Shown here one piece after another: positions 18,569 to 21,621 of a stretch of DNA of 64,000 bases; position 1 is the first letter of the stretch; the number at the start of each line of letters is the position of its first letter. The stretch lies in NCBI RefSeq assembly GCF_009914755.1, contig NC_060947.1. One strand, 5' to 3'. Source of the stretch: the human T2T-CHM13v2.0 reference genome, Homo sapiens. A program made the position numbers and the translations under genes. The notes under the pieces were generated by a model. That model saw only the letters and a list, made by a program, of their open reading frames with translations. It did no database searches and was not told the origin of the DNA.

Positions 18569-18724
18569 AGCAGCAAATTTTTTCCTGAAAGATTAGTTTG
18601 AAGTTTTACAAGTCATCCCATTTTACATGTATGAGGAGAATGAGCTCCCTCTAATGTACAACATGGTGTCTACAGTTTATAACAGTGAATTGTATTCTTG
18701 AAATTTGCTAAGAGAGTAAGTAGG

Positions 18725-19627
18725 GACGTTTAAGTCGGCTGAAACTGTGCCCACAACCGCCCCTTCCCCCAGGTGCTCTGTCCCAGGGAGATGGGGGTTT
18801 TATCTATAAGTCCCTGACTGGGGCTGCTGCCTTTGTTTTAGAGATGCCATGCCCAGAGAGGAGGAATCTAGACAGGCAGTATGGCTGCAGCAGCCTTGCT
18901 GAGCTGTGGTGGGGTCTGCCCAGTTTGAACTTCCTGGCTGCTTTGTTTACACTGTGAGGGTAAAACTACCTACTCAAGCCTCAGCAGTGGCGGACGCCCC
19001 TCCCTCCACCAAGCTCCAGCGTCCCAGGTCAACCTCAGACTGCTGTGCTGGCAGAGAGAATTTCAAGCCAGTGGATCTTAGCTTGCTGGGCTCTGTGGGG
19101 GTGGGACCCGGGAGCCAGACCACTTGGCTCCCTGGCTTCAGCCCCCTTTCCAGGGTATCAATTGTTCTGTCTAGCTGGCTTTCCAGGTGCCACTGGGGTA
19201 TGGAAAAAAAAAAAAAAAAAACGAACCGCAGCTAGGTAGCTCAGTGTCTGCCCAAATGGCCGTCCAGTTTTGTGCTTGAAACCCAGGACCCTGGTGATGT
19301 AGGCACCAGAGGGAATCTCCTGGTCTTCGAGTTGCAAAGACCGTGGGAAAAGCACAGAATCTGGGCCGAGTGCAAAGTTCCTCATGGCACAGCCCCTCAC
19401 GGCTTCCCTTGCCTAGGGGAGGGAAATCCCCTGACCCCTTGTGCTTCCAGGGTGAGGGACACCCCACTCTGCTTCGGCTAACCCTCTGTGGGCTTCACCC
19501 ACTGTCCAACCAGTCCCAGTGAGATGAACCGGGTATTTCAGTTGGAAGTGCAGAAATCACCTGCCTTCTGCCTCAATCTCGCTGGGAGCTGCATACCGGA
19601 GCTGTTCCTATTCGGCTATATTGTCAG
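18725..19627 (-). mobile_element. L1PA7/8-type 5'UTR fragment (about 900 bp, reaching the L1 5' end), inverted 5' part of a chimeric retrocopy
   Basis: agggacgtttaagtc...gctgttcctattcggc; no poly(A) or TSD of its own. Confidence 0.88.
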
Positions 19628-21109
19628 CAGAAGAGGTCAGAATTGATCGCCAAAATCCTGAATTTTTGGGTAACAACATTTGTCAACCATCCACAAGTGT
19701 CTGTACTCCTTGGGGAGGAGAATGAAGAGGCTCTACATTATTTGACTAGTGACAGAATTTGGAGATGTTAAATCAGGTTATAGAATAGATTTTTATTTTG
19801 ATGAAAATCCTTGCTTTAAAAATAAATTTCTCTCCAAAGAATTTCCTCTGAATGAGATTGGTGATCCATCTTCAAAGTCCACCAAAATCAAATGGAAATC
19901 TGGGAAGGATTTGACAAAACGTTCAAGTCAAACGCAGAATAAAGCCAGTAGAAAGAGGCAGCATGAGGAACCAGAGAGCTTCTTTACCTTGTTTACTGAC
20001 CGTTCTGATGCAGGTGCTGATGAATTAGGAGAGGTAATCAAAGATGATATTTGGCCAAACCCATTACAGTACTACTTGGTTCCCAGTATGGATGATGAAA
20101 AAGGAGAAGGAGAAGAAGACGATGATGATGATGATGATGATAAAGAGGAGGAAGGATTAGAAGATATTGATGAAGAAGGGGATGAGGATGAAGGTGAAGA
20201 AGATGAAGATGATGATGAAGGGGAGGAAGGAGAGGAGGATGAAGGGGAAGATGACTAATAGAAAACTGATGGATTCCAACCTTCCTTTTTAAAAATTTTC
20301 TCCAGTCCCTGGGAGCAAGTTGCAGGCTTTTTTTTTTTTTTTTTCCTGAGTTGCTCTGTTCTTGAGGTCTCTTTTCTCTACACCATGGTTCTCAACTTAT
20401 TTGGGGGAAAATACCTTGAGCAGAATACAATGGGAAAAGAGTCTCTACCCCTTTTTGTTCAAAATTCATTTTTATCCATTCCTGTCTGAACAAAAACTGT
20501 ACAGAATCAACACCACTGAGCTCTGTGGGAAAAAAGAAAAACCTGCTCCTTTCGCTCTGCTGGAAGCTGGAAGGTGCTAGGCCCCTGTGTAGTAGTGGAT
20601 AGAATTCTAGCTTTCTTCCTCTTTTCTCTGTATATTGGGCTCAGAGAGTACACTGTGTCTCTAAGTGAATATGGACAGTTAGCATTTAGCAACATGTATC
20701 TGTCTACTTTCTCTTAAGAAAAGAAAAAAAAATGGGGTTATAGAAGGTCAGCAAAGGGTGGGTTTGAGATGTTTGGATGGGTTAAGTGGGCATTTTAACA
20801 ACATGGTTTCTCCTTTGGTATGTTTAATTGTGATATTTGACAGACATCTTTGCAGTTTAAGATGACACTTTATAATGAATTATCTCCTAATGATGACTTA
20901 AGCCCTGCCACTCAATGGAAGAATCAGCAGAACCTGTACAATCTTATTTGGAATTGACATTCTCCATTGCAATTTTATTCTTGTTTATTTTTAAATTTTC
21001 TTTCTGTTTCACTTGAAAGGAAAGATGATGCTCAGTTTTAAAATATCAAAAGTGTACAAGTTGCTTTGTTACAATAAAACTAAATGTGTACACACATACA
21101 CAGACACAA
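19628..21109 (+). pseudogene. SET: SET (TAF-I/I2PP2A, NAP family) processed pseudogene, 5'-truncated, with 3'UTR
   Basis: Translates [24 protein letters not shown], then after a frameshifting deletion near 19748 the 169-aa ORF ...[14 protein letters not shown]...[14 protein letters not shown] and acidic tail ending EDEGEDD; intronless; AATAAA 21073-21078; tail decayed to CA repeat. Confidence 0.96.
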
Positions 21110-21621
21110 AATAGAGTAAGCAGGTCTAAAGTGTTCTTACCACCAAAGAAAGGTAAGCATAAGAGGTGATGGTTATGTTAATTAGTTTGATCATAGTGAT
21201 CATTTCACAATGAATACATATAAAACATTGTTGTACACCTTAAATATACATAATTTTTGTTTGCCGATTATACCTCAATAATTCTGGGAAAATATTTTTA
21301 AATACTCAGAGGTGATTATTTTATCAAAGTAAAATCTAATTTAATAAAATGTAATCACTTCCAATTATTAGTTTTGTTAAATTTTCTTTTTTTTTCTTTT
21401 TTTTTGTTTTTGTTTTTGTTTTATTAAAGTTTTAGGGTACATGTGCACATTGTGCAGGTTAGTTGCATATGTATATATGTGCCATGCTGGTGCGCTGCAC
21501 CCACCAACTCGTCATCTAGCATTAGGTATTTCTCCCAGTGCTATCCCTCCCCCCTCCCCCCACCCCACAACAGTCCCCAGAGTGTGATATTCTCCTTCCT
21601 GTGTCCATGTGATTTCATTGT

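What the first reader, a model, noticed from the sequence alone, without database searches (positions are those of the whole stretch)
18710..21124. One insertion built from two RNAs: inverted L1 5'UTR fused head-to-head to a SET retrocopy
Seen: an old L1M 3' end is split by a 2.4-kb insert bounded by one TSD pair (aagagagtaagtagg 18710-18724 / aatagagtaagcagg 21110-21124, 13/15). Inside, about 900 bp of antisense L1PA7/8 5'UTR runs to the L1 5' end and joins a 5'-truncated sense SET cDNA at 19627/19628. The last TSD bases (c/tagg) overlap the start of the L1 segment (cagggacgtttaag), the priming microhomology expected of twin priming. Established: twin priming normally inverts part of the same RNA. 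Inference: here the second nick primed on a different RNA, plausibly the L1 RNA that supplied ORF2p, so the insert may record which L1 mobilised the mRNA. Alternative: retrocopy of an L1 antisense-promoter read-through transcript from another locus.
Basis: partly seen in the sequence, partly recalled or inferred. Interest (0 to 1): 0.85.

Follow-up and report, generated by a model that had tools for sequence, protein, structure and literature searches.

The report
SET retrocopy capped by inverted L1
A dead copy of the human SET gene on chromosome X carries an upside-down piece of an L1 jumping gene at its front end, apparently because two different RNAs were copied into DNA at one break; it is a clear fixed example of a process that has already been described.

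Summary
Window 18710-21124 is one insertion into an old L1 3' end. Its flanks are adjacent in 41 of 58 paralogous copies. It is bounded by a 13/15 target-site duplication that 0 of 2000 shuffles reached.

The insert has two parts:
- About 910 nt of antisense L1 5'UTR (18720-19629), ending some 6-7 nt short of that family's 5' terminus.
- A spliced, 5'-truncated SET retrocopy (19628-21094) that runs to SET's own poly(A) site.

The SET part begins 73 nt inside an exon, so the junction is not a splice site. The junction occurs once in the T2T genome. Neither part has its own duplication. The two parts are about equally diverged: non-CpG 5.1% for L1 and 4.3% for SET.

Best reading, at about 0.75: SET mRNA was the poly(A)-primed template, and the other DNA end primed on an L1 RNA through 3-5 nt of microhomology.

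This two-RNA form of twin priming is already in print (Doucet 2015; Mendez-Dorantes 2024; Law & Burns 2026). The locus is therefore a new member of a known kind. The source L1 can be narrowed only to its family. Primate orthologues could not be checked.

The parts
18650..18724 (+). Left half of the old L1 3' end that was the target (family name not tested)
   Evidence: paralogous copies align from about 18650 to 18712-18721 at 69-90% identity.
18710..18724 (+). Left copy of the target-site duplication (aagagagtaagtagg). The inferred first nick is ct/aaga, just before it.
   Evidence: Its first 9 nt align to the same paralog bases as 21110-21118 (L014, L020, L032, L034).
18720..19629 (-). It runs from about family position 915 to about 6-7 nt short of the family's 5' terminus.
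   Evidence: 39 non-self genomic matches at 82-87%; alignment with 16 near-full-length copies; one colinear match.
18720..18724 (+). Bases shared by the TSD end and the L1: AGG for certain, GCAGG if 18721 was C. This is the proposed annealing site of the top-strand 3' end on the L1 RNA.
   Evidence: the right TSD copy reads gcagg, and the family reads CCTGC in the L1 sense.
19204..19221 (-). Internal T-run of the L1 5'UTR (an A-run on the + strand). It is a feature of the family, not a tail.
   Evidence: present in 16 of 16 family copies.
19628..19629 (.). L1/SET junction: 2 nt (CA) that can be assigned to either part, with no filler.
19628..21094 (+). 5'-truncated processed SET retrocopy (SETP8). 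It consists of six exon blocks without introns and includes the whole 3'UTR. The reading frame is broken.
   Evidence: six blocks on chr9; the start lies 73 nt inside an exon; the end is at SET's 3' end, after AATAAA; a stop after 47 codons.
21095..21109 (+). Degenerate remnant of the poly(A) tail (8 A in 15 bases, CA-like)
   Evidence: this sequence is absent from the SET gene beyond its 3' end.
21110..21124 (+). Right copy of the target-site duplication (aatagagtaagcagg)
21110..21300 (+). Right half of the old L1 3' end that was the target
   Evidence: paralogs align from 21110-21122 onward at 66-81% identity.

Best explanation
This is one L1-mediated integration that used two RNA templates, that is, twin priming on two different RNAs.

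Inferred sequence of events:
1. ORF2p nicked the bottom strand at ct/aaga in an old L1 3' end.
2. The poly(A) end of a SET mRNA was reverse-transcribed from that nick. This first cDNA ended inside an exon.
3. After the top strand was cut 15 nt downstream, its 3' end (...GCAGG) annealed to CCUGC about 915 nt into a full-length L1 RNA of the family active at that time.
4. That end primed a second cDNA, which ran almost to the 5' end of the L1 RNA.
5. The two cDNA ends were joined at a 2-nt overlap.

Shown by the sequence: a single duplication, opposite orientations, the near-terminal L1 end at the inner junction, the microhomologies, and similar ages. Inferred: the order of events and the priming itself.
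For: - One TSD surrounds both parts: 13/15, reached by 0 of 2000 shuffles. The flanks are adjacent in 41 of 58 paralogous loci.
- Neither part has a duplication of its own. The best 12-mer matches were 7/12 (reached by 1000 of 1000 shuffles) and 9/12 (reached by 255 of 1000).
- The SET side carries the marks of the primary reaction. It ends at SET's own 3' end after AATAAA, has an A-rich remnant, and the TSD starts with AAGA after CT.
- The L1 side has no 3' end or tail. Its outer end lies at an internal L1 position and shares 3-5 nt with the TSD end.
- The inner end of the L1 part lies about 6-7 nt from the family's 5' terminus. That is what run-off at an RNA 5' end predicts.
- The junction is unique in the genome and is not at an exon border.
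- The ages agree. The L1 branch is 6.9% over all sites and 5.1% non-CpG; the 16 other copies span 6.0-7.8% and 4.1-5.9%. SET is 5.0% over all sites and 4.3% non-CpG.
- There is precedent. Inverted snRNA/L1 chimeras were ascribed to twin priming, with complementarity at the junction (PMC4476161). [quoted passage not shown]
Against: - No empty orthologous site could be examined, so joint arrival of the two parts rests on the single TSD and on similar divergence.
- The divergence figures have wide errors (roughly +/-0.6-0.8 percentage points each) and could not separate events a few million years apart.
- The tail is short and degenerate rather than a clean poly(A).
- The 5-nt microhomology assumes a later C-to-T change at 18721; only 3 nt are certain.
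- End microhomology is also usual at ordinary 5'-truncated insertions (PMC11702581), so it does not by itself separate this reading from a single chimeric RNA.
- The nick site ct/aaga matches the usual tt/aaaa at only 4 of 6 positions.
Confidence: 0.75

Rival explanations
1. The insert is a retrocopy of a single chimeric RNA. A full-length L1 had inserted, antisense, into a SET exon sequence (in the gene or in another retrocopy) elsewhere. A transcript running antisense through the L1 5'UTR into SET was polyadenylated at the SET site and then retrotransposed here as an ordinary 5'-truncated insertion.
For: The geometry fits equally well: one TSD, an L1 5' boundary at the inner junction, and microhomology at a truncated 5' end. 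Law & Burns also report mRNA/L1 chimeras for which no source L1 survives (PMC13174262, section 13).
Against: - No other locus in the T2T genome carries the junction. Only the window itself matched both halves; 40 of 1481 candidates were scored, and a full-length match would have outscored the half matches.
- All 5 other SET retrocopies examined continue upstream of the breakpoint.
- The SET gene exon is intact there.
- The antisense L1 stretch starts about 915 nt in, beyond the first 600 bp where antisense-promoter transcripts of L1HS and L1PA2-8 begin (PMC4908685).
- This reading needs four rare steps and then loss of the source locus.
Confidence: 0.1
2. Template switching within one reverse-transcription run. 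RT copied the SET mRNA from its tail, then jumped onto an antisense L1 transcript and copied it towards that transcript's 5' end.
For: Template-switch chimeras such as U6/L1 are well documented (PMC4476161; PMC13174262). The 2-nt overlap at the junction would suit a jump.
Against: - The jump would have had to land, by chance, within about 7 nt of the L1's 5' boundary inside the antisense RNA. Run-off on a sense L1 RNA explains that position without any coincidence.
- The antisense RNA would have to start at or beyond 915 nt into the L1, outside the known antisense-promoter zone.
- SET mRNA was left in mid-exon, not at its 5' end.
Confidence: 0.05
3. Two separate events, or capture of a loose cDNA. 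An ordinary 5'-truncated SET retrocopy formed, and a free L1 cDNA or DNA fragment was ligated in at its 5' junction by end joining, either during the same repair or later, without priming from the target end.
For: [quoted passage not shown]
Against: - A later insertion would have had to fall exactly between the TSD and the SET start, leaving no duplication or deletion of its own.
- An L1 piece with no 3' end is not a normal insertion product.
- The intact 15-nt TSD and the 3-5 nt shared with the TSD end fit priming from the unprocessed top-strand end (argument in PMC11702581).
Confidence: 0.07

Closest known systems
Inverted snRNA/L1 chimeras ascribed to twin priming on two RNAs (Doucet et al. 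2015, PMC4476161; passages read)
   Same: Two different RNAs lie in opposite orientation inside one TSD. The endonuclease-type site is on the side of the poly(A)-primed partner. The inverted partner starts at an internal position and shares bases with the target end.
   Different: There the poly(A)-primed partner is L1 (or SVA) and the inverted partner is a short snRNA. Here the poly(A)-primed partner is a cellular mRNA and the inverted partner is L1 RNA itself, copied for about 910 nt almost to its 5' end.
Antisense tRNA, 5S and mRNA chimeras with L1 (Law & Burns 2026, PMC13174262; abstract, passages, section 13 and part of Table S5 read)
   Same: These are fixed human insertions read as twin priming because the two parts are in opposite orientation. 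The antisense mRNA cases show no splice features.
   Different: That catalogue is built on sequence 5' of an L1 that carries the tail and the TSD. This locus has the roles reversed. 'SET' and 'SETP8' did not occur in the four readable supplement files; three PDF supplements could not be read.
De novo insertions holding sequence from two transcripts, in cells with induced L1 expression (Mendez-Dorantes et al. 2024 preprint, PMC11702581; passages read)
   Same: These show TSD and poly(A) features. [quoted passage not shown] Microhomology or short insertions occur at the junctions.
   Different: Those are fresh events in culture. The passages I read do not say which transcript pairs were involved, so I cannot say whether an mRNA-primary, L1-secondary case is among the nine.
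Classical twin priming, i.e. 5'-inverted L1 or processed pseudogene (Ostertag & Kazazian 2001; known to me only through citations in the papers read)
   Same: An inverted 5' segment and a sense 3' segment share one TSD, with microhomology at the 5' junction.
   Different: In classical cases both segments come from one RNA and their inner breakpoints are close together (22 of 32 with 1-10 bp deletions, 10 of 32 with duplications; PMC11702581). Here the two segments come from unrelated RNAs.
Template-switch chimeric retrogenes (U6/L1 type)
   Same: Two RNAs lie in one insertion with one TSD.
   Different: In those the two parts have the same orientation (PMC13174262). Here they are opposed.

Membership tests
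L1-mediated processed pseudogene (SET part) | Introns removed relative to the parent gene | tested here: met
   six exon blocks of the chr9 SET gene are contiguous in window 19628-21094.
L1-mediated processed pseudogene (SET part) | Ends at the parent's polyadenylation site with an A tail | tested here: inconclusive
   homology ends about 20 nt after AATAAA, at the gene's 3' end. The following 15 nt are only 8/15 A.
L1-mediated processed pseudogene (SET part) | Target-site duplication and an endonuclease-type nick site | tested here: met
   a 15-nt duplication at 13/15. The nick context ct/aaga matches tt/aaaa at 4 of 6 positions (the consensus is quoted in PMC13174262).
Classical twin-priming inversion (one RNA) | Inverted and sense segments derive from the same RNA, with neighbouring inner breakpoints | tested here: not met
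   one segment is SET mRNA and the other is L1 5'UTR.
Twin-priming chimera from two RNAs | Two unrelated RNA-derived segments in opposite orientation inside one TSD, with no TSD around either alone | tested here: met
Twin-priming chimera from two RNAs | The outer end of the inverted segment is an internal RNA position that shares bases with the target's 3' end | tested here: met
   3 nt certain, 5 nt if 18721 was C.
Twin-priming chimera from two RNAs | Both segments arrive at the same time in the species tree | not testable with these tools
   No primate genomes are held. The only proxy is similar divergence: 5.1% versus 4.3% non-CpG.
Template-switch chimeric retrogene | The two segments have the same orientation | tested here: not met
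   SET is on the + strand and the L1 on the - strand.
Retrocopy of an L1 antisense-promoter chimeric transcript | The L1 antisense segment starts within the first ~600 bp of the 5'UTR | tested here: not met
   the segment starts about 915 nt in. The TSS zone is from PMC4908685, section 7.
Retrocopy of an L1 antisense-promoter chimeric transcript | The junction lies at a splice site, or a source locus with the same junction exists | tested here: not met
   the junction is 73 nt inside an exon; no second locus in the T2T genome. Other genomes were not searched.

The most novel reading that the evidence does not exclude
The inverted L1 5'UTR may come from the very L1 RNA whose ORF2p was diverted onto the SET mRNA. 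In that case the L1 RNA stays at the integration site during trans-mobilisation and can be caught by the second DNA end. Composite insertions of this type (mRNA in sense with a tail, L1 5' end inverted) would then be a direct physical record of which L1 mobilised which mRNA. In young or somatic events, where source L1s differ by diagnostic bases, that record could be read down to the individual element.
Probability: 0.3. Interest if true: 0.6.

Novelty: new member of a known kind. Interest (0 to 1): 0.4.

Why it matters
This is a clean, fixed germline example showing that the second DNA end at an L1 integration site can prime on a different RNA from the first. Here the partner is L1's own full-length RNA, while a cellular mRNA supplies the tail.

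It also shows that an L1 RNA was at the site where an mRNA was being mobilised in trans, and it ties the age of the SET retrocopy to one L1 family.

Published catalogues built around a tailed L1 would miss this reversed arrangement, so similar cases may be under-counted. The locus has no sign of function, since the SET frame is broken.

Tried and rejected
- **Splice origin of the junction:** rejected. SET starts 73 nt inside an exon.
- **Displaced 5' end of a neighbouring L1:** rejected. The minus-strand L1s at 1-3868 and 21370-27412 keep their own 5' ends and match the family at only 75-81%.
- **A-run at 19204-19221 as a second tail:** rejected. All 16 of 16 family copies have it.
- **Separate duplications around either part:** none found.
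- **Identifying the individual source L1:** failed. The 39 best copies are all 82-87% identical, and the window copy is as far from the 16 fetched copies (13.7%) as they are from each other (13.6%).
- **Naming the L1 family (L1PA7 or L1PA8) and the target repeat (L1M):** not possible, because no repeat library is held.
- **Literature search:** badly posed; it returned nothing relevant.
- **PMC8082928 and bioRxiv 10.1101/2024.08.27.596794:** the passages read described nothing like a single-site two-RNA insertion of this type.
- **Search for 'SETP8':** one listing, whose title concerns Sept8/SEPTIN8 (listing only).
- **In print?** I found no description of a processed pseudogene capped by an inverted L1 5'UTR in searches. 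The library lacks most subscription journals, and the PDF supplements of PMC13174262 could not be read.
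Full report
**What is there**

The window is human T2T chrX:115,320,001-115,384,000 (hub annotation; one search places it at G000:C23). Between 18710 and 21124 the sequence reads, left to right:
- a 15-mer, aagagagtaagtagg;
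- about 910 nt that are the reverse complement of an L1 5'UTR;
- about 1,470 nt of spliced SET cDNA in sense;
- 15 nt of CA-like, A-rich sequence;
- the 15-mer again, as aatagagtaagcagg.

**Is the duplication real?**

The two 15-mers match at 13 of 15 positions. This is the best 15-mer match between the two boundary zones (18695-18735 and 21085-21140), and none of 2000 shuffles reached it. With 12-mers the match is 11/12, reached by 2 of 1000 shuffles.

More telling, the flanks are two halves of one old repeat. I fetched 58 paralogous loci using either flank as the query. In 41 of them (42 placements) the left flank, aligned as far as window 18712-18721, and the right flank lie side by side on one strand. 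In 25 placements the two alignments abut or overlap by 1-9 subject bases. In the other 17 the weaker right-flank alignment simply starts 3-49 bases further in. In the four placements where the right-flank alignment starts at 21110, it overlaps the left-flank alignment by 8-9 subject bases. The first nine bases of the 15-mer are therefore one target sequence present twice.

From memory, the repeat looks like the 3' end of an old L1.

**The SET part**

Window 19628-21094 aligns to six exon blocks of the SET gene on chr9 with the introns gone. It ends at the gene's 3' end, about 20 nt after AATAAA.

RefSeq's SETP8 stops at 20444, so the annotation omits about 650 nt of 3'UTR homology.

The start, cagaagagg, lies 73 nt inside an exon that begins after a cag acceptor. 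This is a 5' truncation, not a splice junction.

The frame breaks after 47 codons.

Divergence from the gene is 69/1367 (5.0%) in the five blocks the script counted, and 58/1339 (4.3%) outside parental CpGs. The sixth block, 19696-19793, fell below that script's E-value cut; adding its 9 mismatches by hand gives about 5.3%.

**The L1 part**

Window 19629-18722 is one colinear match to full-length L1 copies; L074 matches at 86.7% over 924 columns. The 39 best non-self matches in the genome are 82-87% identical.

I fetched 16 of them with their 5' flanks and aligned them. About half share a 5' terminus that ends ...TGCTGGCAAGATGG and is preceded by a few G/A/T bases. The window's copy includes TGCTG and then gives way to SET. 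It therefore stops about 6-7 nt short of the family terminus, and two bases (CA, 19628-19629) can be assigned to either part. There is no filler.

The A-run at 19204-19221 is a T-run present in all 16 copies, so it is not a second tail.

At the outer end the family reads ...GTCCCTGCCTGA... while the window reads ...GTCCCTACTTAC.... The bases AGG (18722-18724) belong to both the L1 and the TSD. The shared stretch is GCAGG (18720-18724) if 18721 was C at insertion, as it is in both the right TSD copy and the family.

The neighbouring minus-strand L1s (1-3868 and 21370-27412) keep their own 5' ends. The piece is therefore not a displaced part of either.

**Same age?**

I did not build a consensus. 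I estimated the window copy's own branch as its mean distance to the 16 copies minus half their mean distance to each other. This gives 6.9% over all 938 columns and 5.1% after masking 92 CpG columns. The 16 copies themselves give 6.0-7.8% and 4.1-5.9%.

This branch also includes any difference between the source element and the family node, so it is an upper estimate. The SET value also includes change in the parent gene. Within sampling errors of roughly 0.6-0.8 points, the two parts are equally old. Both also match the age of this L1 family, which fits an event while the family was active.

**One event or two?**

Neither part has a duplication of its own. The best 12-mer around the L1 alone is 7/12, reached by 1000 of 1000 shuffles. 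The best around SET alone is 9/12, reached by 255 of 1000.

The L1 piece has no 3' end or tail, so it is not a normal insertion.

The junction is unique. With window 19540-19720 as the query, only the window itself matched both halves. L1 copies matched query positions 1 to 80-93, and SET copies matched from query position 89 onward. Only 40 of 1481 candidates were scored, but a full-length match would have outscored the half matches. All five other SET retrocopies examined continue upstream of the breakpoint.

**Mechanism**

The geometry is that of twin priming.
- The tail side (SET) abuts a TSD that starts AAGA after CT. That is an endonuclease-like site for a + strand insertion. The other end, read on the minus strand, is not such a site.
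- After the second cut, the top strand's 3' end is the right edge of the left TSD copy. Sequence added to it must be the complement of an RNA, starting at an internal position and running towards the RNA's 5' end. That is exactly what the L1 piece is.
- The piece ends near the L1 transcription start. This follows naturally if RT ran almost to the end of a sense, full-length L1 RNA.

The steps themselves (nick, priming, run-off, joining at CA) are inferred from this anatomy.

**Rivals**

- *Single chimeric RNA.* This needs an antisense full-length L1 inside a SET exon sequence elsewhere, a transcript starting at or beyond 915 nt into that L1, retrotransposition of that transcript, and then loss of the source. 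No source exists in this genome. The start lies outside the first 600 bp, where antisense-promoter ESTs of L1HS and L1PA2-8 map, with the main start near 400 (PMC4908685, section 7 read whole).
- *Template switch onto an antisense L1 RNA.* This would have to land by chance within about 7 nt of the L1 boundary.
- *Later insertion or capture of a loose cDNA.* This is hard to fit with the intact TSD and the shared bases at the end.

I put these rivals at about 0.10, 0.05 and 0.07, and the two-RNA twin-priming reading at 0.75.

**What is known**

- Doucet et al. 2015 (PMC4476161, passages) described seven snRNA copies (U5, U1, U2 and one U6) in inverse orientation beside an L1 or another retrotransposed sequence, inside a TSD. 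The endonuclease site was on the L1 side and there was complementarity at the junction. They proposed twin priming on the snRNA.
- Mendez-Dorantes et al. 2024 (PMC11702581, passages) resolved nine de novo insertions derived from two transcripts. [quoted passage not shown]
- Law & Burns 2026 (PMC13174262; abstract, passages, section 13 and part 1 of 3 of Table S5) catalogue tRNA, 5S and two antisense mRNA chimeras with L1, and draw twin priming as the route to opposed segments.

In the two genomic studies the tailed, primary partner is L1 or another retrotransposed sequence. Here it is a cellular mRNA, and L1 RNA is the captured partner.

'SET' and 'SETP8' did not occur in the four readable supplement files of PMC13174262; three PDF supplements could not be read. 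Searches turned up no description of this locus or of this reversed arrangement. I cannot say whether one of the nine de novo cases has it.

**Verdict**

The mechanism, however, is already described, so this is a new member of a known kind.

The idea that the insert names the L1 that mobilised SET holds only at family level, because no individual source stands out. Whether that L1 RNA supplied the ORF2p remains open. It could be tested in marked-donor experiments.

The decisive missing test is the primate orthologue comparison, which these tools do not allow.

Noticed in passing
window 20445-21094: RefSeq's SETP8 span (19628-20444, hub table) stops about 650 nt before the end of the SET homology. 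The retrocopy carries the whole SET 3'UTR, down to the gene's poly(A) site.
   Followed up: yes
window 18721-19629: This 900-nt L1 5'UTR stretch is absent from the hub's list of the longest masked repeats, although stretches as short as 167 nt are listed. NCBI's masking seems to have missed it, which may be why the composite went unnoticed.
   Followed up: no
window 21370-27412 and 1-3868: Two long minus-strand L1s with their own 5' ends lie nearby. The first starts only about 250 nt to the right of the insertion. They match the family of the inverted piece at only 75-81%, and only at the two ends of the 5'UTR, so they belong to another L1PA family.
   Followed up: partly
window 19735-19750: The SET copy lacks about 10 nt relative to the gene in the second exon block (84% identity with 2 gaps). 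This shifts the frame. Downstream, a 169-codon open frame (19749-20258) is the SET C-terminal frame, still open to the original stop.
   Followed up: partly
window 21086-21109: The tail remnant together with the end of SET reads as an imperfect (CA)n run. It is probably a microsatellite that grew out of the poly(A) tail next to SET's terminal acaca.
   Followed up: no
window 18076-18389: An Alu with a 20-nt A tail lies 320 nt to the left of the insertion, outside the old L1 3' end. It is unrelated to the finding.
   Followed up: no
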